From Mustelus asterias (taxonomy: Eukaryota), in the NCBI RefSeq assembly GCF_964213995.1, contig NC_135809.1, forward strand, positions 86,552,001 to 86,616,000: a stretch of DNA of 64,000 bases, in the 5' to 3' direction. The position numbers were made by a program, and so were the translations under genes. The notes under the pieces are model-generated. The model ran no database searches, was not told the DNA's origin, and saw only the letters and a program-made list of their open reading frames with translations. The number at the start of each line of letters is the position of its first letter. Within the stretch, counting starts at the first letter, position 1. Shown piece after piece: positions 6,395 to 61,772 of the stretch.

Positions 6395-8893
6395 TAGTGG
6401 AGGAACGGATATGCCAGGAGATTCTGGATATGTGCAGAAAAAATAGCGTTGTTGTAGCGGGAGACTTCAATTTCCCTGGAAAGTGCTTAGGGCTGGGGGT
6501 CTGGACTGGGAGGAATTTGTAAAATGCGTACTGGAAGGTTCTTTGGAACAGTATGTAGATAGCCCAACTAGAGATGGGGCTATACTGGATCTAGTTCTGG
6601 GAAATGAGCCCGGTCAGGTCGTCAAAAGTTTTGGTAGGGGAACATGTGGCAAATAGTGACCACAACTCTGTTAACTTTAGGATAGTAATGAACAAGGATG
6701 AGTGTTGTCCTAAGGGTAGGGTGCTAAATTGGGGGAAGGCTAACTATAGCCGGATTAGGCAGGAATTGGCAGCCGTTGATTGGGAGAGGCTGTTCGGAGG
6801 TAAGTCCACGTCTGTCATGTGGGAGTCTTTTAAGGAACAGTTGATAAGGTTGCAGGACAGGCATGTGCCTGTAAATAGGAAGGATAGGAAAGGTAGGATT
6901 CAAAAGTCGTGGAAATCCAGGGAAATTGAGGATCTGATCAAAAAGAAAAGAGAGGCGTATGTTAGGTCCAGGCAACTGAAAACAGATGGAGCTCTGGAGG
7001 AATACAGAGAGAGTAGGAAAGAACTCAAACGGGGAGTTAGAAGGGCAAAAAGAGGTCACGAAATGTTCTTGGCAGATATGAATAAAATGCCTTAGGATTC
7101 TCCTCAATCCTATGTTAGGAACAAAAGAGTTGTCAGGGAAAAAGTCGGACCTCTCAGGGACAAAGGAGGGGAATTATGCTTAGAACCCAAGGGAATAGGG
7201 GAGATCCTAAATGAATACTTTGCATTGGTATTCACAAAGGAGAGGGACTTGTTGACTGGGAGTGTCTCAGAGGGAGGTGTTGACCCGCTAGAGAGAATCT
7301 CCATTACAAGGGAGGAAGTGTTAGGTTTTTTAGGTAACATTAAAACTGACAAATCCCCAGGGCCTGATGGCATCTATCCTAGACTGCTCAGGGAGACAAG
7401 AGATGTAATTGCTGGGCCTCTGACGGAAATCTTTGTCTCTTTGTTGGACACAGGTGAGGTCCCTGAGGATTGGAGGATAGCGAATGTAGTACTGTTATTT
7501 AAGAAGGGTAGCAGGGATAACCTGGGTAATTATAAGCCAGTGAGCTTGATGTCCGTGGTAGGGAAGTTGTTGGAGTGGATTCTTAGAGACAGGATGTATG
7601 CGCATTTAGAACGGAACAATCTCATTAGTGACAGACAGCATGGTTTTGTAAGAGGGAGGTCGTGTCTTACAAATTTGGTGGAGTTTATTGAGGAAGTGAC
7701 AAAAACGGTTGATGAAGGAAGGGCCGTGGATGTAGTCTATATGGATTTCAGTAAGGCATTTGATAAAGTCCCTCATGGCAGGTTGGTTAAGAAGGTTAAG
7801 GCTCATGGGATACAAGGAGAGGTGGTAGAAAACTGGCTTGGCCACAGGAGACAGAGGGTAACAGTTGAAGGGTCTTTTTCTGGCTGGAGGTCTGTGACCA
7901 GTGGTGTTCCGCAGGGCTCTGTACTGAGACCCCTGCTATTTGTGATATGTATAAATGATTTTGAAGAAGGTGTAACTGGTGTTATCAGCAAGTTTGCGGA
8001 TGACACGAAGATGGCTGGACTTGCGGATAGCGATGAACTTTGTTGGACAATACAGCAGGATATAGATAGGCTGGAAAATTGGGCGGAGAAATGGCAGATG
8101 GAATTTAATCCAGATAAATGCGAAGTGATGCATTTTGGAAGAACTAATGTAGGGGGAAGTTATACAATAAATGGCAGAGCCATCAAGAGTATAGAAACAC
8201 AGAGGGACCTAGGTGTGCAAGTCCTCAAATCCTTGAAGGTGGCAGCACAGGTGGAGAAGGTGGTGAAGAAGGCATATGGTATGCTTGCCTTTATAGGACG
8301 GGGTATAGAGTATAAAAGCTGGAGTCTGATGATGCAGCTGTATAGAACGCTGGTTAGGCCACATTTGGAGTACTGGGTCCAGTTCTGGTTGCCGCACTAC
8401 CAGAGGATGTGGAGGCTTTAGAGAGAGTGCAGAGAAGGTTTACCAGGATGTTGCCTGGTATAGAGGGTCTTAGCTATGAGGAGAGATTGGGTAAATTGGG
8501 CTTGTTCTCCCTGGAAAGACGGAGAATGAGGGGAGACCTAATAGAGGTGTACAAAATTATGAAGGGTATAGATAGGGTGAACAGTGGGAAGCTTTTTCCC
8601 AGGTCGGAGGTGACGATCACAAGGGGTCACGGGTTCAACTTGAGAGGGGCGAGGTATAACTCAGATATCAGAGGGACGCTTTTTACACAGTGGTGGGGGC
8701 CTGGAATGCGCTGCCAAGTAGGGTGGTGGAGGCAGACACGCTGGCATAGTTTAAGACTTGCCTGGATAGTCAGATGAGCAGTCTGGGAATGAAGGGATAC
8801 AAACGAATGGTCTCGTTGGACCAATGAGCAGCACAGGCTTGGAGGGCCGAAGGGCCTGTTTCCTGTGCTGTACTGTTCTTTGTTCTTTGTTCT
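6395..8893 (+). mobile_element. 5'-truncated CR1 LINE with disrupted ORF2 (APE endonuclease C-terminus + RT)
   Basis: VVAGDFNFP and NSDHN (endonuclease); KSPGPDGIYPR, VYMDFSKAFDKV, GVPQGSVL and KFADDTK (RT) across ORFs 6604-7095, 7225-8421 and 8409-8777; (TGTTCTT)n tail. Confidence 0.97.
7225..8421 (+). pseudogene. CR1 reverse transcriptase fragment (398 aa between lesions)
   Basis: RT motifs QHGF, DFSKAFD, PQGSVL and FADD; stop upstream, frameshift downstream. Confidence 0.9.
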
Positions 8894-19359: not shown

Positions 19360-19717
19360 GAACGGCTTAGATAGGATGGACGTAGGGAAGTTGTTTCCAT
19401 TAACAGGGGAGACTAGGACGCGGGGGCACAGCCTTAGAATAAAAGGGAGTCACTTTAGAACAGAGATGAGGAGAAATTTCTTCAGCCAGAGAGTGGTGGG
19501 TCTGTGGAATTCATTGCCACAGAGGGCTGTGGAGGCCGAGACGTTGAGCGTCTTCAAGACAGAAATTGATAAATTCTTGATTTCTCGAGGAATTAAGGGC
19601 TATGGGGAGAGAGCGGGTAAATGGAGTTGAAATCAACCATGATTGAATGGTGGAGTGGACTCGATGGGCCGAATGGCCTTACTTCCGCTCCTATGTCTTA
19701 TGGTCTTATGGTCTTAT
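19360..19717 (+). mobile_element. 3' end of a second CR1 subfamily nested in the first
   Basis: GLDRMDVGKLFP...TRGHSLRI...FFSQRVVGLWNSLP; tail (GGTCTTAT)n; GGAT duplicated at 19356-19359 and 19718-19721; host frame MERD|RHEP rejoins. Confidence 0.93.
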
Positions 19718-21830
19718 GGATAGGCATGAACCTCGGGCCAGTGGTTTTAGCTGGGGGAAGGGTAATTATGAGGCTATTAGGAGAGAATTAGGAAACATAG
19801 GTTGGACTAGGAGATTACAGGGACTGGGAACGTCCGACATGTGGAGTTTTTTCAAGGAGCAGCTACTGCGAGTCTGTGATAGGTATGTCCCTGTCAGGCA
19901 AGGAGGAATTGGTAGGGCTAGGGAACCGTGGTGCACCAAAAAAGTTTCTTTGTTGGTTAAAAAGAAAAAGGAGGCTTATGTTCGGATGAGACGTGAGCAC
20001 TCGGGTAGTGCACTAGAAAGCTTTAGATTGGCTAAGAGGGAGTTGAAGAGCGAGCTTAGAAGGGCTAAAAGGGGACATGAGAAGACTTTGGCGGATAGGG
20101 TTAAAGAGAATCCTAAGGCGTTCTATAGGTATGTCAAGAACAGAAGGTTGGTTAGGGCAAGTTTAGGGCCAGTTATAGATGGCAGAGGGAAGTTATGTGT
20201 GGAACCGGAGGAGATTGGTGAAGCATTGAACCAATATTTCTCTTCGGTGTTCACGCAAGGGGACATGAATATAGCTGAGGAGGACACTGGGTTGCAGGGG
20301 AGTAGAATAGACAGTATTACAGTTGATAAGGAGGATGTGCAGGATATTCTGGAGGGTCTGAAAATAGATAAATCCCCTGGTCCGGATGGGATTTATCCAA
20401 GGATTCTCTGGGAGGCAAGAGAAGTGATTGCAGAGCCTCTGGCTCTGATCTTCAGGTCGTCGTTGGCCTCTGGTATAGTACCAGAAGATTGGAGGTTAGC
20501 GAATGTTGTCCCATTGTTTAAGAAGGGGAACAGAGACTTCCCCGGGAATTATAGACCGGTGAGTCTCACTTCTGTTGTCGGCAAGATGTTGGAAAAAATT
20601 ATAAGGGATAGGATTTATAGTTATTTGGAGAGTAATGAATTGATAGGTGATAGTCAGCATGGTTTTGTGGCAGGTAGGTCGTGCCTTACTAACCTTATTG
20701 AGTTTTTTGAGAAAGTGACCAAGGAGGTGGATGGGGGCAAGGCAGTGGACGTGGTATATATGGATTTTAGTAAGGCGTTTGATAAGGTTCACCATGGTAG
20801 GCTTCTGCAGAAAATGCAGATGTATGGGATTGGGGGTGATCTAGGAAATTGGATCAGGAATTGGCTAGCGGATAGGAAACAGAGGGTGGTGGTTGATAGT
20901 AAATATTCATCATGGAGTGCGGTTACAAGTGGTGTACCTCAGGGATCTGTTTTGGGGCCACTGCTGTTTGTAATATTTATTAATGATCTGGATGAGGGTA
21001 TAGTTGGGTGGATTAGCAAATTTGCTGATGACACCAAAGTCGGTGGTGTGGTAGACAGTGAGGAAGGGTGTCGTAGTTTGCAGGAAGACTTAGACAGGTT
21101 GCAAAGTTGGGCCGAGAGGTGGCGGATGGAGTTTAATGCGGAGAAGTGTGAGGTAATTCACTTTAGTAGGAATAACAGATGTGTTGAGTATAGGGCTAAC
21201 GGGAGGACTTTGAATAGTGTGGAGGAGCAGAGGGATCTAGGTGTATGTGTGCATAGATCCCTGAAAGTTGGGAATCAAGTAGATAAGGTCGTTAAGAAGG
21301 CATATGGTGTCTTGGCGTTTATTGGTAGGGGGATTGAATTTAGGAGTCGTAGCGTTATGTTGCAACTGTACACAACTCTGGTGCGGCCGCACTTGGAGTA
21401 CTGTGTGCAGTTCTGGTCCCCACATTACAGGAAGGATGTGGAGGCTTTGGAGAGGGTGCAGAGGAGGTTTACCAGGATGTTGCCTGGTATGGAGGGGAGA
21501 TCCTATGAGGAGAGGCTGAGGGATTTGGGATTGTTTTCGCTGGAAAGGCGGCGGCTAAGAGGGGATCTTATTGAAACATATAAGATGATTAGAGGTTTAG
21601 ATAGGGTGGATAGTGATAGCCTTTTTCCTCTGATGGAGAAATCCAGCACGAGGGGGCATGGCTTTAAATTGAGGGGGGGTAGTTATAGAACCGATGTCAG
21701 GGGTAGGTTCTTTACCCAGAGGGTGGTGAGGGATTGGAATGCCCTGCCAGCATCAGTAGTAAATGCGCCTAGTTTGGGGGCGTTTAAGAGATCCGTAGAT
21801 AGGTTCATGGACGAAAAGAAATTGGTTTAG
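19647..21830 (+). CDS. CR1 ORF2-derived reverse transcriptase ORF, endonuclease-less, uninterrupted (transposon ORF, not a host gene)
   Basis: 727-aa ORF with KSPGPDGIYPR, SQHGF, VYMDFSKAFDKV, GVPQGSVLGP, KFADDTK and FNAEKC; the first ~24 codons come from the nested insert's 3' UTR. Confidence 0.8.
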   Translation: MVEWTRWAEWPYFRSYVLWSYGLMDRHEPRASGFSWGKGNYEAIRRELGNIGWTRRLQGLGTSDMWSFFKEQLLRVCDRYVPVRQGGIGRAREPWCTKKVSLLVKKKKEAYVRMRREHSGSALESFRLAKRELKSELRRAKRGHEKTLADRVKENPKAFYRYVKNRRLVRASLGPVIDGRGKLCVEPEEIGEALNQYFSSVFTQGDMNIAEEDTGLQGSRIDSITVDKEDVQDILEGLKIDKSPGPDGIYPRILWEAREVIAEPLALIFRSSLASGIVPEDWRLANVVPLFKKGNRDFPGNYRPVSLTSVVGKMLEKIIRDRIYSYLESNELIGDSQHGFVAGRSCLTNLIEFFEKVTKEVDGGKAVDVVYMDFSKAFDKVHHGRLLQKMQMYGIGGDLGNWIRNWLADRKQRVVVDSKYSSWSAVTSGVPQGSVLGPLLFVIFINDLDEGIVGWISKFADDTKVGGVVDSEEGCRSLQEDLDRLQSWAERWRMEFNAEKCEVIHFSRNNRCVEYRANGRTLNSVEEQRDLGVCVHRSLKVGNQVDKVVKKAYGVLAFIGRGIEFRSRSVMLQLYTTLVRPHLEYCVQFWSPHYRKDVEALERVQRRFTRMLPGMEGRSYEERLRDLGLFSLERRRLRGDLIETYKMIRGLDRVDSDSLFPLMEKSSTRGHGFKLRGGSYRTDVRGRFFTQRVVRDWNALPASVVNAPSLGAFKRSVDRFMDEKKLV

Positions 21831-33514: not shown

Positions 33515-34822
33515 TTGATTTGATCTGATATGTTATTGTCCGGTTTATTAGTATACAGTGAAAAGTATTGTTTCTTGCGTGCTATACAGACAAAGCAGAC
33601 CATACATAGAGAAGGAAAGGAGAGAGTGCAGAATGTAGTGTTACAGTCATAACTAGGGTCATAGCTAGCCAGAGAAAGATCAACTTAGTGCGAGGTAGGT
33701 CCATTCAAAAGTCTGATGGCAGCAGGGCAGAAGCTGTTCTTGAATCAATTGGTACATGTCCTCAGACTTTTGTATCTTTTTCCCGACGGAAGGAGGTGGA
33801 AGAGAGTATGTCCGGGGTGCGTGGGGTCCTTGATTACGCTGGCTGCTTTTCCAAGGGAAGTGTAGACAGAGTCAACGGATGGGAGGCTGGTTTGTGTGAT
33901 GGACTGGTCTTCATTCACGACCCTTTGTAGTTTTTTGCGGTCTTGGACAGAGCAGGAGCCATATCAAGCTCTGTTACAACTGGAAAAGTTGGTGAGAGTC
34001 GTAGCAGACATGCCAGATTTCCTTAGCTTCCTGAGAAATTAGAGGCGGTGGGCTTTCTTAATGATAGCATTGGCATGGGGGGACCAGGACAGGTTGTTGG
34101 TGATCTGGACACCTAGAAACTTGAAACTCTCAACCATTTCCACTTCGGCCCCATTGATGTAGACATGGGCATGCCCTCCACAACATTCCTGAAGTCGATG
34201 ACTATCTCTTTCATTTTGTTGGCATTGAGGGAGAAGTTATTGTAGTTGCACCAGTTCACCAGATTCTCTGTCTCTTTTCTGTACTCCGTCTTGTCATTGT
34301 TTGACAACCCACTATGGTTCTGTCATCAGCAAATTTGCAAATCAAGTTGGAGGGGAATTTGGCCACACAGTCATAAGGAGTATAGTAGGTGCTGAGGACA
34401 CAGCCTTGTGGGGCACCGGTGTTGAAGATGCTCATGGAGGAGGTGTTGTTGCCTATCCTTATTGATTGCGGTCTGTGGGTTAGGAAGTCTAGGATCCAGT
34501 TGCAGAAGGAGGAGCTGAGCCCTAGGCCACGGAGTTTGGAGATGGATTTTGTAGGAATAATGGTGCTGAAGGCTGAGCTGTAGTTAATAAATAGGAGTCT
34601 GACATAGGTGTCTTTGTTATCTAGGTGTTCCAGGGTTGAATGTAGGGCCAGGGAGATGACGCCTGCTGTGGACCTGTTGCGGCGATAGGCAAACTGTAGT
34701 GGATCCAGGCAATCCGGGAGTCTGGAATGGATTTGTGCCATGACTAACCTTTCGAAGCACTTCATAAAATGATGGATGTCAGAGCCACCGGATGATAGCC
34801 ATTAACGCATTCTGCCTGGCTT
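33515..34822 (-). mobile_element. Rex1/Babar-like LINE, 5' truncated
   Basis: MKCFERLV...[14 protein letters not shown]...[13 protein letters not shown]...GAPQGCVLS...KFADD; (TCAAA)n tail. Confidence 0.92.
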
Positions 34823-37264: not shown

Positions 37265-38572
37265 CCTTGATTTGATTTGATTTATTATTGTCACATGTAT
37301 TAACATACAGTGAAAAGTATTGTTTCTTGCACGCTATACAGACAAAACATACTGTTCATTGAGAAGGAAACAAGAGAGTGCAGAATGTAATGTTACAGTC
37401 ATAGCTAGGGTGTAGAGAAATATCAACTTAATGCAAGGTAAGTCCATTCAAAAGTCTGACAGCAGCAGGGAAGAAGCTGTTCTTGAGTCGGTTGTATGTG
37501 ACCTCAGACTTTTGTATCTTTTTCCTGATGGAAGAAGTTGGAAGAGAGATGTCCGGGGTGCATGGGGTACTTAATAATGCTGGCTGCTTTGCCGAGGCAG
37601 CAGGAAGTGTAGACAGAGTCAATGGATGGGAGGCTGGTTTGCGTGATGGATTGGGCTACATTCACAACCTTTTGTAGTTCCTTGCGGTCTTGGGCAGAGC
37701 AGGAGCCATACCAAGCTGTGATGCAACCAGAAAGAATGCTTTCTATGGTGCATCTGTAAACGTTGGTGAGAGTCATAGATGACATGCCAGATTTCATTAG
37801 TCTTCTGAGAAAGTAGAGGCGTTGGTGAGCTTTCTTAACTATAGTGTCGGCATGGGGGGACCAGGACAGGTTGTTGGTGATCTGGACATCTAAAAACTTG
37901 AAGCTCTCAACCCTTTCTACTTCATCCCTGTTGATGTCGACAGGGGAATGTTCTCCTTTACGCTTCCTGAAGTCGATAATCTCCTTCGTTTTGTTGACAT
38001 TGAGGGAAAGATTATTGTTGCCGCACCAGTTCACCAGATTCTCCATCTCATTCCTGTATTCTGTCTCGTCATTGTTTGAGATCTGACCCACTGTTATCGT
38101 CAGCAAACTTGAAAATTGCATTGGAGGGGAATTTGGCCACACAGTCATAGGTGTATAAGGAGTATAGTAGGGGGCTGAGAACACAACCTTGTGGGGCACT
38201 AGTGTTGAGGATGATCGTGGAGGAGGTGTTGTTGCCTATCCTTACTGATTGTGGTCTGTGGGTTAGGAAGTTCAGGATCCAGTCGCAAAGGGAGGCGGCG
38301 AGGCCCAGGCCATGGAGTTTGGAGATGAGTTTCGTGGGAATAATAGTGTTGAAGGCTGAGCTGCAGTCAATGAATAGGAGTCTGACATATGTGTCCTTGT
38401 TATCTAGGTGTTCCAGAGTTGAGTGCAGGGCCAGGGAGATGGCGTCTGCTGTGGACCTGTTGTGGCGGTAGGCAAACTGTAGTGGATCCAGGTAGTCTGG
38501 GAGCCTGGAATTGATTTGTGCCATGACTAGCCTTTTGAAGCACTTCATAATGATGGATGTCAGAGCCACTGG
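37265..38572 (-). mobile_element. Rex1/Babar-like LINE, 5' truncated, frameshifted
   Basis: ORFs 38069-38569 and 37504-38199 with [30 protein letters not shown] and KKAHQRLYFLRRL; (TCAAA)n tail. Confidence 0.95.
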
Positions 38573-38574
38573 CC

Positions 38575-39490
38575 AACAGAGGGGGAGTTATTAGAGAGTC
38601 TCAATATAGATTCTGGAAGAGAAGGTCCTATCACCAACTTCGTTAAATTTTTTTATTAGGTTGGTAGACAGTTCAGTTGACATTTTGTGCCATGATTTTT
38701 AAAAGGAATTTGACAAGGTGACACAGAAAATGACTACTTAGTAAGACATGGGATTAGCTAGCAGAAGATTATTAATAGTAGTAATTCTGCATTGGGACCA
38801 GTTAACAGTAGAGTCCAGCAAGGTTGGATGTTGGGGTTCATTTTTTTTATCATACTCATTAATATTCTGAATAAAGGCATATAAGAAATTATCTGCAAGT
38901 TTATGGATAATAAGATTTGTACGAGTGTTAGGACCATAGCTGAAAAATCTAGATTCAAAGTATTATGTACAGCTCTGGATGCTACACTATAAGAAGGATG
39001 TGAATGCATTGGAGAGAGTGCAGAAGAGGTTTACAATGATAGTTTCAGGGATGGGAAACTTTAGTAATGAGAATAGACTGGAGAGGTTGGGATTGTTCTC
39101 TTTGGAGAGAAGAAGGCTGAGAGGAGATTTGATAGAGATGTTCAAAATCATGAGGGGGCTGGACAGAGTTGATAGGGAGAAACTGTTCCTGCTTTTAAAA
39201 GGATCAAGAACAAGAGGGCACACACTTAAGGTGATTTGCAAAAGTTGCAAATATGGTATGAGAAAAATCTTTTTCATACAACGAGTGATTCGGGTCTGGA
39301 ATGTGTGTGGTGGAGGCAGGTTCAATTGAAGCATTTAAGAAGAAATTAAATAACTATTTGGATAGGAATAACGTGCAGGGGTATGGGGAAAAAGCAGGGG
39401 AATGGCATTAAGCCATAATGCTCATTTGGAGAGTCGGTGCAGACATGATGGGCCAAATGGCCACCTTCTGCGCTGTAACGATTCTGTGAA
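38575..39490 (+). mobile_element. CR1 fragments (old RT piece plus a younger 3' end from ~38970)
   Basis: HYKKDVNALERVQKRFT...LFSLERRRLRGDLIE...TRGH. Confidence 0.85.
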
Positions 39491-60345: not shown

Positions 60346-60453
60346 ATACTTACCTGGCAGGGGTGAAACCATAATCAAGCAGGTGCTGCACCCAGGACCT
60401 GGCAGGGGACAAGGCTAGCCCGTTGCACTTGGGGTGTGCTGACACCTGCGATT
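60346..60453 (+). pseudogene. U1 snRNA-derived segment (3' truncated)
   Basis: ATACTTACCTGGCAGGGG...ACCAT(A)ATCA...CCCAGG...TTGCACT...TGTGCTGAC(A)CCTGCGATT is collinear with roughly the first 100 nt of U1; no Sm site or stem-loop IV. Confidence 0.9.
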
Positions 60454-60536
60454 GTGGTTTGCTGAAGCCAGGGTAAAGTAAAGGATCAGGGTAGCCAATG
60501 AGGTAAGACGGAGGGTTTACCTGATGCAATGTTTTA

Positions 60537-60708
60537 AAGCCACCTTGGCCTTTTGGCTAAGATGAAGCATTAGTTCAAGTTTGGGAGGGGGTGCAATGCC
60601 TCATCTTGTCAGCTGGGATCTTGTTTGATCGAGCCCAAGATAGGATGCAAAGTCTTGTCAGCTTGGATCTTGTTTGTCCCTCGTGGGGACGATGATTGGC
60701 TTTTTTGG
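60537..60708 (+). pseudogene. U2 snRNA-derived segment with internal duplication
   Basis: GGCCTTTTGGCTAAGAT (60547-60563); TCTTGTCAGC(TG/TT)GGATCTTGTTTG twice (60604-60627, 60653-60676); GTCCC...GGGAC stem IIb-like; CTTTTTTGG Sm-like site. Confidence 0.75.
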
Positions 60709-60790
60709 TTATAAATAAAATACCGAGAGGTAAAAATAAAAAATACAGTGCATGCTACACAATCACTGACAATTCTGTCCTCTCTCTCCA

Positions 60791-61433
60791 AGTAAGAAGT
60801 TTAACAACACCAGGTTAAAGTCCAACAGGTTTATTTGGTAGCAAAAGCCACACAAGCTTTCGGAGCTGCAAGCCCCTTCTTCAGGTGAGTGGGAATTCTG
60901 TTCACAAACCGAGCATATAAAGACACAGACTTAATTTACATGAATAATGGTTGGAATGCGAATACTTACAACTAATCAAGTCTTTAAGAAACAAAACAAT
61001 GTGAGTGGAGAGAGCATCAAGACAGGCTAAAAAGATGTGTATTGTCTCCAGACAAGACAGCCAGTGAAACTCTGTGGGGGTTACAAATAGTGTGCCATGA
61101 ACCCAATATCCCGGTTGAGGCCGTCCTCGTGTGTGCGGAACTTGGCTATCAGTTTCTGCTCAGCGACTCTGCGCCGTCGTGTGTCGCGAAGGCCGCCTTG
61201 GAGAACGCTTACCCGAATATCAGAGGCCGAATGCCCGTGACCGCTGAAGTGCTCCCCAACAGGAAGAGAACAGTCTTGCCTGGTGATTGTCGAGCGGTGT
61301 TCATTCATCCGTTGTCGCAGCGTCTGCATAGTTTCCCCAATGTACCATGCCTCGGGACATCCTTTCTTGCAGTGTATCAGGTAGACAACGTTGGCCGAGT
61401 TGCAAGAGTATGTACCGTGTACCTGGTGGATGG
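60791..61433 (-). mobile_element. Penelope-like element, left arm of the inverted pair
   Basis: YSCNSANVVYLIHCKKGCPEAWYIGET...R...E...GLN (GIY-YIG endonuclease), 3' UTR and hammerhead. Confidence 0.95.
60848..60892 (-). ncRNA. minimal type I hammerhead ribozyme
   Basis: CCACTCAC-CTGAAGA-AGGGGC-TTGCA-GCTCC-GAAA-GC-TT-GTGTGG; intact core and palindromic AAGCTT stem III. Confidence 0.75.
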
Positions 61434-61448
61434 GATCCATCCAATGGA

Positions 61449-61772
61449 CCATACAAAGGTCCATTGACCTGGGGCGGGATTTTCCAGACTTGGGGCGAGC
61501 GTGGCCAGAAAATCCCACCCAGAATGTTTTTATTCCAATTGAGTTTCTTGCAACCCAACTCACCCAATCCCTGCCCACCAATCATCCAGCTTTCCAAAAA
61601 ACAATTATTGCAAAAGTATGCTGAGTTGGGTTAAGAAATGATTTTTTTCCACCTAAAACTGTTTATTTAACTCTATATTTACCTGAATAGAGTTAAAGGA
61701 GCCATTCCTCAGTTCGGCAAAAAAATTCTTATTTTGGATACACACACTTAATTATTGTGGAAGTCTGAAGGC
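61449..61772 (-). repeat. 324-bp perfect inverted copy of 63449-63772
   Basis: block-by-block comparison found no mismatch or indel. Confidence 0.97.

What the first reader, a model, noticed from the sequence alone, without database searches (positions are those of the whole stretch)
60346..60745. U1-U2 snRNA chimeric element with an A-rich tail (SINEU-like) in a probable shark
Seen: the element starts exactly at U1 nt 1, keeps the 5' splice-site-pairing ATACTTACCTG and runs ~108 nt with ACCTGGCAGGGG duplicated (60352-60363, 60397-60408). After an ~85-nt spacer comes a U2-derived part: stem I, an altered branch-point-pairing region, a duplicated 24-nt stem IIa-like block, a stem IIb whose sequence differs from U2 but still pairs (GTCCC/GGGAC), and an Sm-like T run. 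It ends in an A-rich tail with AATAAA. Established: snRNA-headed SINEs (SINEU) were described in crocodilians, and Tx1-clade LINEs target snRNA genes. Inference: two same-strand snRNA pieces this close are unlikely to be independent pseudogenes, so this is probably one copy of a U1/U2 fusion retroposon family. Its transcripts could pair with 5' splice sites. I see no clear TSD and cannot tell whether the family is already catalogued.
Basis: partly seen in the sequence, partly recalled or inferred. Interest (0 to 1): 0.75.

Follow-up and report, generated by a model that had tools for sequence, protein, structure and literature searches.

The report
Mobile element stitched from three snRNAs
This is one decayed copy of a dispersed family of short mobile elements stitched together from pieces of three splicing RNAs (U1, U4 and U2), likely copied around the genome by a U2-targeting retrotransposon; in the papers searched, such elements were described only from crocodilians and never with a U4 piece.

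Summary
The element is real and belongs to a family. It is one decayed copy (about 7% from consensus) of a roughly 400-nt, A-tailed retroposon scattered over many contigs, and runs labelled as four organisms hold it too. The element therefore reads U1-U1-U1-U4-U2. Two corrections: the 12-nt U1 duplication is private to this copy, and stem IIb simply matches the host's U2. Relatives sharing the body include a U2-only monomer, an older variant-U1 subfamily and a younger U2-headed family (970 exact head matches, clear TSDs) that sits beside Keno/Tx1 LINE copies. Head breakpoints (U2 nt 39, U1 nt 37) coincide with the Keno insertion position. This suggests new masters arose by inserting into snRNA genes and borrowing their promoters, but no such master was found. 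It is SINEU-like and probably arose independently of crocodilian SINEU. Repbase and Dfam could not be checked. There is no evidence that it acts in splicing.

The parts
60346..60396 (+). Copy-specific added head: U1 snRNA nt 1-51 (5' splice-site arm and stem-loop I)
   Evidence: 46/52 identity to host U1 gene; junction has 1 exact match genome-wide
60397..60452 (+). Family head: U1 nt 7-17 joined to U1 nt 50-95 (stem-loop II, U1A loop decayed in this copy)
   Evidence: alignment to host U1; family alignment
60454..60467 (+). Remnant of an older U1 head (U1 nt 38-51)
   Evidence: consensus 13/14 identical to a host U1 paralog; homologous to the A0 head arm. Short: 20 of 1000 shuffles of the spacer reached its score against U1
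60470..60490 (+). Repeat of the variant-U1 stem-loop I 5' arm and loop
   Evidence: 20/21 identical to the A0 head in the A0 consensus
60491..60515 (+). U4 snRNA nt 23-47 (5' stem-loop, kink-turn geometry; broken in this copy)
   Evidence: consensus 23/25, 0 of 1000 shuffles; this copy 3 of 1000 shuffles, 19/25 counted by eye; A0 consensus 25/26
60516..60542 (+). Linker with a short U4-like T-run (U4 Sm-site region or U4 nt 63-73; not resolved)
   Evidence: 20 of 2000 shuffles reached the score; alternative register; weak
60543..60567 (+). U2 snRNA nt 7-31 (stem I); continues into sequence resembling the 5' head of the host Keno LINE
   Evidence: A0 vs Keno head 38/44, 12/15 beyond the U2 anchor
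60573..60675 (+). Two tandem units of about 54 nt with altered U2 branch-point-pairing and stem IIa sequence
   Evidence: unit-to-unit alignment; U2 39-102 similarity; single unit in subfamily A0
60676..60707 (+). U2 stem IIb and a degenerate Sm-site T-run
   Evidence: arms identical to host U2; no canonical Sm motif
60708..60743 (+). 3' tail: AATAAA, decayed tetraloop hairpin, A-rich tail
   Evidence: consensus hairpin fold; 36 exact tail matches, 30 of 30 fetched are family copies

Best explanation
The element is one decayed copy of a dispersed, A-tailed short retroposon family built from fragments of U1, U4 and U2 snRNA, likely copied by the reverse transcriptase of a Keno-type (Tx1 clade) LINE, and likely gaining each new head when a copy landed in, or was joined to, an snRNA 5' end. 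Shown: the snRNA pieces, many copies with shared junctions, 5' truncations, A tails, some TSDs, and relatives sharing the body (U2 monomer C; variant-U1 subfamily A0; U2-headed family B). Inferred order: a U2-derived monomer, resembling an internally deleted Keno insertion plus its U2 flank, took on a U4 5' piece, then U1 heads (A0, A) or a U2 head (B). Inferred transcription: the family has no usable internal promoter, so masters probably lay inside snRNA genes at about +38, the Keno site, and were transcribed from the gene's upstream promoter. That would give daughters that begin at snRNA nt 1. One-off extra heads, like this copy's U1 1-51, likely come from template switching. This copy is probably inert.
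For: Family:
- 40 of 40 scored hits lie at 78-88% identity on many contigs.
- 30 of 30 fetched tail hits are family copies, many 5'-truncated.
- TSD score >=8 in 5 of 53 copies vs 0.5% of 600 mismatched pairs.
- Contigs from runs labelled as four organisms bridge U1-U4-U2.
U4: 0 of 1000 shuffles; 25/26 in A0.
Keno:
- An EN-RT LINE has its A tail followed by U2 nt 38/39, the Keno/Utopia site (PMC4640811 section 6).
- Its head matches the SINE body at 38/44, 12/15 past the U2 anchor (p about 3e-5).
- Family B shares the body, has TSDs in 16 of 29 copies vs 3.75% null, and sits beside Keno 3' ends (L241/L242, L236, L083, L189), once with the same TSD; no Keno hit in 400 kb of random DNA.
Promoter capture:
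- The B consensus head is U2 1-39, 39/39. The search pattern fixed this junction, but it has 970 exact matches.
- About 36 of 44 A heads break after U1 nt 37.
- A Keno-type 3' end abuts U1 nt 35-37 (L193) and a B-type 3' end abuts U5 nt 38 (L057).
- Near-full copies share no 5' extension (46 copies, 1035 pairs, like null).
- B pieces: 6 in 400 kb around snRNA clusters vs 0 in 400 kb random.
Against: - No master was found: no family-A head in 400 kb around U1 and U4 clusters, no U1-promoter-like flank in 46 A/A0 copies or 5 more, and 0 B heads with the U2 gene's own upstream bases.
- The break at U1 nt 37 is equally explained by a simple deletion of nt 38-49.
- Other head junctions (U1 51-53, 95) are not at +38.
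- The U1 and U5 junctions are single cases.
- For family A itself the Keno link is indirect: only 1 of its 60 fetched loci (58 distinct) has Keno nearby. Tail likeness to Keno is not significant (137 of 2000 shuffles). No LINE carries the A tail 21-mer (0 of 30 seen, of 36). A target motif seen in 6 of 53 copies did not replicate (0 of 15, 2 of 27).
- A GWTCRANNC B-box-like motif occurs in both tandem units.
Confidence: 0.68

Rival explanations
1. Same family and same LINE partner, but every head was added by template switching during reverse transcription, and masters were transcribed by read-through from unrelated flanking promoters (the model proposed for crocodilian SINEU).
For: Copy-specific U1 additions with variable junctions exist (L001, L002, L072). 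No snRNA-gene-embedded master was found. Kojima 2015 (PMC4494074) shows such 5' extensions in SINEU-2.
Against: Read-through predicts shared 5' extensions. None were seen among 46 copies, and loose ends before the head agree at only 0.36-0.41 in four DNA runs. It does not explain why the B head stops at the Keno site.
Confidence: 0.3
2. Family A was mobilised by a different LINE (another Tx1/L1 family, or the abundant CR1/L2), which recognised its 3' hairpin and A tail.
For: Family A has its own tetraloop hairpin tail, absent from Keno and from B. Only 1 of its loci has Keno nearby, and TSDs are a minority.
Against: No LINE carries the tail 21-mer among 30 of 36 exact hits. The body is shared with B, whose Keno link is direct. 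Poly-A tails and TSDs fit L1/Tx1 rather than CR1 (established knowledge, recalled).
Confidence: 0.2
3. The body evolved an internal RNA polymerase III promoter from U2 stem I (A-box-like) and the B-box-like motif, making it a conventional SINE.
For: A GWTCRANNC match sits at consensus 205 and 259.
Against: No A box matched the pattern used. T5 at 162 and T4 at 183 would stop Pol III. Copies start about 170 nt upstream of the U2 part. The two motifs are one duplicated unit, partly U2-derived.
Confidence: 0.07
4. A functional chimeric snRNA, or a transcript that pairs with 5' splice sites and alters splicing.
For: The U1 5' arm is kept. The consensus keeps the U1 stem-loop II fold and the U4 kink-turn pairing, intact in 22 of 41 copies.
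Against: Rfam score is far below the cut-off. There is no Sm site. Stem-loop I is broken in most copies. Divergence is 5-10% in every segment, with CpG decay at 27%, as expected for neutral copies. No promoter-bearing locus was found.
Confidence: 0.04
5. A collection of independent snRNA retropseudogenes or chimeras, not a transposing unit.
For: True U1 retrocopies with the same variant head exist (L142, L160).
Against: The same multi-part junctions and internal duplication are shared by dozens of dispersed copies and across runs of four organism labels.
Confidence: 0.01

Closest known systems
SINEU-2 and SINEU-1 of crocodilians (Kojima 2015, PMC4494074; main text read, supplement not available)
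   Same: Short (<500 nt), A-tailed, U1 5' plus U2 3' layout. Recurrent addition of U1 or U2 heads, partial duplications inside the heads, internal oligo-T, mixed TSD/no-TSD, Tx1-clade partner.
   Different: Host lineage: the paper found none outside crocodilians. This family has a U4 segment, so three snRNAs in one unit. Its apparent partner is U2-targeting Keno rather than Tx1-Mar, and no shared transposon flank was seen. Sequence homology beyond the snRNA parts could not be tested.
SINEU-3 (same paper)
   Same: Family C here is likewise a U2-derived monomer, colinear with U2 to about nt 154.
   Different: C carries an insertion resembling the Keno head rather than a simple internal deletion; only 2 copies were examined.
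Keno (Tx1 clade LINE targeting U2; described in PMC4640811 section 6 and PMC4494074)
   Same: The host LINE has APE-type endonuclease and RT domains and ends at U2 nt 38/39. Its head matches the SINE body.
   Different: The SINE is non-coding and dispersed. Keno-type 3' ends here also abut U1 (about nt 36), and a B copy abuts U5 nt 38 (one case each).
U6-L1 and other snRNA chimeric retrocopies (as summarised in PMC4494074)
   Same: An snRNA 5' piece is joined to another retro-sequence; this fits the one-off added head of this copy.
   Different: Those are independent one-off events; here the junctions are inherited by many copies.

Membership tests
SINEU class | 5' head derived from U1 or U2 snRNA | tested here: met
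   U1; family B, U2 1-39
SINEU class | Short (<500 nt), non-coding, 3' poly-A tail | tested here: met
   398-nt consensus with A tail; no ORF of 150 aa or more over the element
SINEU class | Multi-copy unit with shared junctions, not independent chimeras | tested here: met
SINEU class | Retrotransposition marks (5' truncation, TSDs) | tested here: met
   truncations; TSDs in 5 of 53 A copies vs 0.5% null and 16 of 29 B copies vs 3.75%; none in this copy
SINEU class | Recurrent 5' addition of snRNA pieces | tested here: met
   several head types
SINEU class | No internal Pol III promoter; internal oligo-T | tested here: inconclusive
   T5, T4 and T6 runs and no A-box match, but a B-box-like motif occurs twice; motif scan only
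SINEU class | Mobilised by a Tx1-clade LINE | tested here: inconclusive
   direct co-insertion for B; indirect for A (for; not supporting)
Crocodilian SINEU-1/-2/-3 families | Sequence homology beyond the snRNA parts | not testable with these tools
   supplement unavailable; no Repbase or Dfam
Crocodilian SINEU-1/-2/-3 families | Preferred insertion into one transposon (Mariner-N4) | tested here: not met
   no shared 5' flank among 46 near-full copies; Mariner-N4 itself was not available as a query
Functional U1/U2/U4 snRNA gene | Rfam gathering score, Sm site, upstream promoter element | tested here: not met
   29.9 vs 69.5 bits; no Sm motif; no U1-like upstream flank
Keno (for the candidate partner, L065/L066) | APE endonuclease plus RT; 3' flank is U2 from nt 39 | tested here: met
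   PMC4640811 section 6
Keno (for the candidate partner, L065/L066) | RT phylogeny within the Tx1 clade | not tested
   no tree built; assignment rests on domains and target site

The most novel reading that the evidence does not exclude
An independently evolved clade of snRNA-built SINEs renews itself by promoter capture. Keno machinery drops copies at about +38 of U2, U1 and U5 genes, by position rather than by sequence. Each hit creates a new master driven by the host snRNA promoter, so the element has serially collected U2, U4 and U1 5' ends. This would answer how promoterless SINEU elements are transcribed, and would be the first SINE with a U4 kink-turn module, with a young U2-headed branch that may still be active.
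Probability: 0.33. Interest if true: 0.75.

Novelty: new variant of a known kind. Interest (0 to 1): 0.55.

Why it matters
SINEU is a rare SINE class whose transcription is an open question (PMC4494074). This family appears to be a second vertebrate origin with a new component (U4). It has a readable history of head swaps and a young sister family (copies up to 98.8% identical to consensus) next to Keno copies, including one uninterrupted ORF2 stretch of 1025 aa (L066). That makes the promoter question directly testable. Practically, these elements will inflate U1, U2 and U4 pseudogene counts in such genomes. In antisense, each full-length copy carries a perfect 5' splice donor, so insertions in introns should show orientation bias or exonisation.

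Tried and rejected
- Rfam scan: no U2 or U4 call on this copy; one weak U2 call (E 0.85) among 8 other loci. Pairwise tests against host genes were needed.
- U5 and U6 origin for the spacer, middle or tail: not supported for the consensus. The lowest count was 91 of 1000 shuffles; the window spacer vs U5 gave 39 of 1000 among 12 tests.
- Partner LINE by shared tail: none among 30 of 36 exact hits. Tail vs Keno: 137 of 2000 shuffles.
- Target motif: 6 of 53, borderline after 1024 tests, and not replicated.
- Master in an snRNA gene: none found; a negative in one assembly.
- Random sampling: 0 core hits and 1 edge U1-head hit in 40 x 10 kb, which gives only an upper bound of about 27,600 copies.
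- Expression: no RNA holder listed. Four runs guessed to be RNA, with shares of 0.06-0.09, gave contigs on both strands, often inside longer sequence; no listed piece spans the stretch. This says nothing for or against transcription.
- Compensatory change in stem IIb: rejected, as the arms equal host U2.
- Special conservation of any module: none.
- No tRNA gene in the window.

Full report
Observation. The sequence is as described at 60346-60745. Rfam finds only a weak U1 match (29.9 bits, cut-off 69.5), so I fetched the genome's own U1, U2, U4, U5 and U6 genes and compared against those. The first 52 nt are 46/52 identical to host U1. U2 nt 8-31 lie at 60543-60567, and a U2 39-102-like part follows: 0 of 1000 shuffles reached the score for the consensus and 12 of 1000 for this copy.

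It is a family. A DNA search gave 3361 first-look candidates; the 40 scored are 78-88% identical and lie on many contigs. Twenty-nine fetched copies give a 398-nt consensus, family A. An exact 21-nt tail motif occurs 36 times; all 30 fetched are family copies, many 5'-truncated. Of 58 distinct loci, 53 had a locatable tail; 5 of these have a TSD scoring 8 or more against 0.5% of 600 mismatched pairs. One further copy (L086) shows a long flank duplication by eye. Non-CpG divergence is 2.8-11.7%, mean 7.0%, in 41 near-full copies (loci interrupted by other elements were left out); this copy is at 7.2%. From the tail count, the branch with this tail has roughly 200-400 copies. Forty random 10-kb stretches held no core copy. 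Runs labelled organisms A-D hold 40-51% of one copy's words, and contigs of all four bridge U1-U4-U2; one of them may be the source of the assembly.

The spacer is snRNA. Consensus 123-147 matches host U4 nt 23-47 at 23/25. Against U1, U2, two U4 copies, U5 and U6 on both strands (12 tests), only the U4 sense strand beat all 1000 shuffles; for this copy 3 of 1000 reached the score. A pattern for a variant U1 head gave 31 hits; 30 were fetched. Twenty-eight continue into the SINE body, most as an older subfamily A0 with a single U2 unit. Two (L142, L160) continue as U1, so the variant head came from a real U1 paralog. In the A0 consensus (19 copies) the U4 piece is 25/26 identical to host U4, and it is preceded by a 20/21 repeat of the variant U1 loop. 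The piece before that matches a host U1 paralog at 13/14. The pairing of the U4 kink-turn (geometry recalled) is intact in the consensus and in 22 of 41 copies, but broken here. The window's own 12-nt duplication has one exact match in the genome: U1 1-51 was added to this copy alone, as with other one-off heads in L002 and L072.

Relatives. Family C (2 copies seen, L089 and L023) is a monomer colinear with U2 to about nt 154. Its 3' part beat 1000 shuffles, and it is 114/135 identical to the A0 body. Family B has the same body, including a degenerate U4-like stretch, under a head identical to U2 1-39. Its head junction has 970 exact matches, the 30 fetched copies (all from contig C1) are 92.6-98.8% identical to their consensus, and 16 of 29 have TSDs against 3.75% null.

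Partner. The 8,035-bp U2 array holds a LINE with a U2-derived head, an ORF1 and an endonuclease-RT ORF2 (Pfam on the L066 copy). Its A tail is followed by U2 nt 38/39, the site given for Keno and Utopia in PMC4640811. Its head matches the SINE body at 38/44, 12/15 beyond the U2 anchor. B copies adjoin Keno 3' ends at L241/L242 (same TSD), L236, L083 and L189, with no Keno hit in the random 400 kb. For family A the link is indirect, and three tests did not support it: neighbours (1 locus), tail likeness (137 of 2000 shuffles) and target motif (not replicated).

Transcription (inferred). The consensus has T5 and T4 runs mid-element and no A-box match, though a B-box-like motif appears in both tandem units. 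Near-full copies start at or near snRNA nt 1 and share no upstream extension. The B head ends at the Keno site. Thirty-eight of 44 A heads were classed by rule as U1 1-37 joined to 50-95; two of these (L001, L080) are really another form, leaving about 36. A Keno-type 3' end abuts U1 nt 35-37 and a B-type 3' end abuts U5 nt 38. B pieces number 6 in 400 kb around snRNA clusters against 0 in 400 kb random. These fit masters formed by insertion into snRNA genes and driven by their promoters. Against this: no such master was found, a plain deletion explains the U1 break equally well, and other head junctions lie elsewhere. I put promoter capture at about 45%, Keno-type mobilisation of family A at about 70%, and the family claim above 95%.

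Function. No consensus has a canonical Sm site, most A copies lack stem-loop I, and all segments decay at 5-10%. Nothing supports a role in splicing. The antisense strand of the head is a perfect splice donor, an untested route to exonisation.

Literature. Nine full-text searches showed no report of an snRNA-headed SINE in sharks or of a U4-containing SINE among the listed results. Not all holders were listed: 30 of 45, 21 of 23, 25 of 59, 4 of 5 and 25 of 1,070. What I saw: PMC4494074, parts 1-4 of 5 (all main text; its supplement, which holds the SINEU alignments and bears on homology, was not available); PMC4640811, passages and section 6; passages only of PMC5786205, PMC7245038, PMC5381603, PMC5753468, PMC4455052, PMC5499810 and bioRxiv 10.1101/2025.02.02.635956; all others as search listings. 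Subscription papers, Repbase Reports and Dfam were not searchable, so the family may already be catalogued. Unchecked notes of this scan describe U2-derived SINE-like copies and U1- or U4-headed LINEs in other genomes. If right, snRNA capture is commoner than print suggests, which lowers the surprise somewhat.

Verdict. It works like a SINEU and meets the class features that could be tested. It is not filed in the crocodilian families. New variant of a known kind, interest 0.55.

Noticed in passing
L065:977-6622 (G000:C24, about 44.81-44.94 Mb): A tandem array with 8,035-bp period; the units examined hold an intact U2 gene plus a Keno-type LINE inserted in a second, split U2 copy. One of the two units fetched (L065) appears to carry another small element inside ORF2.
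   Followed up: partly
L193:650-2712 (G000:C8 U1 array): A 5'-truncated Keno-type copy (88% to L065) whose A tail abuts U1 nt 35-37; Keno 3' ends also recur in each unit of the other U1 array (L172-L175).
   Followed up: partly
L057:1107-1380: A family-B-type copy whose 3' end abuts U5 nt 38, with about 170 bp of U5 and flank present on both sides.
   Followed up: partly
L215-L244: Young U2-headed sister family B: 970 exact head matches, up to 98.8% identity to consensus, frequent tandem insertions; it deserves its own description.
   Followed up: partly
L142 and L160, around 1475-1620: Two retrocopies of a variant U1 with a compensated stem-loop I that seem to share an internal deletion near the 3' end; possibly another small U1-derived family.
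   Followed up: no
L192:6309-6472: A full-length U1 paralog with a different stem-loop I loop and a diverged upstream flank.
   Followed up: partly
window 61081-61581 (-): A GIY-YIG endonuclease frame (Pfam E 4e-4, just below cut-off), Penelope-like by my recall, starting about 340 bp downstream of the element.
   Followed up: partly
window 19647-21830 (+): An uninterrupted 727-aa reverse transcriptase frame (Pfam RVT_1), CR1-like by my recall; further broken LINE RT frames lie at 6595-8421, 34256-34801 and 37504-38587.
   Followed up: partly
L008, L013, L069, L085, L088: Family-A copies interrupted by other repeats, mostly an abundant short element (HE1-like by recall), so family A predates those insertions.
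   Followed up: no
L067:1-1930 (-): A decayed Tx1-like LINE with its own U2-derived head near the U5 cluster.
   Followed up: no
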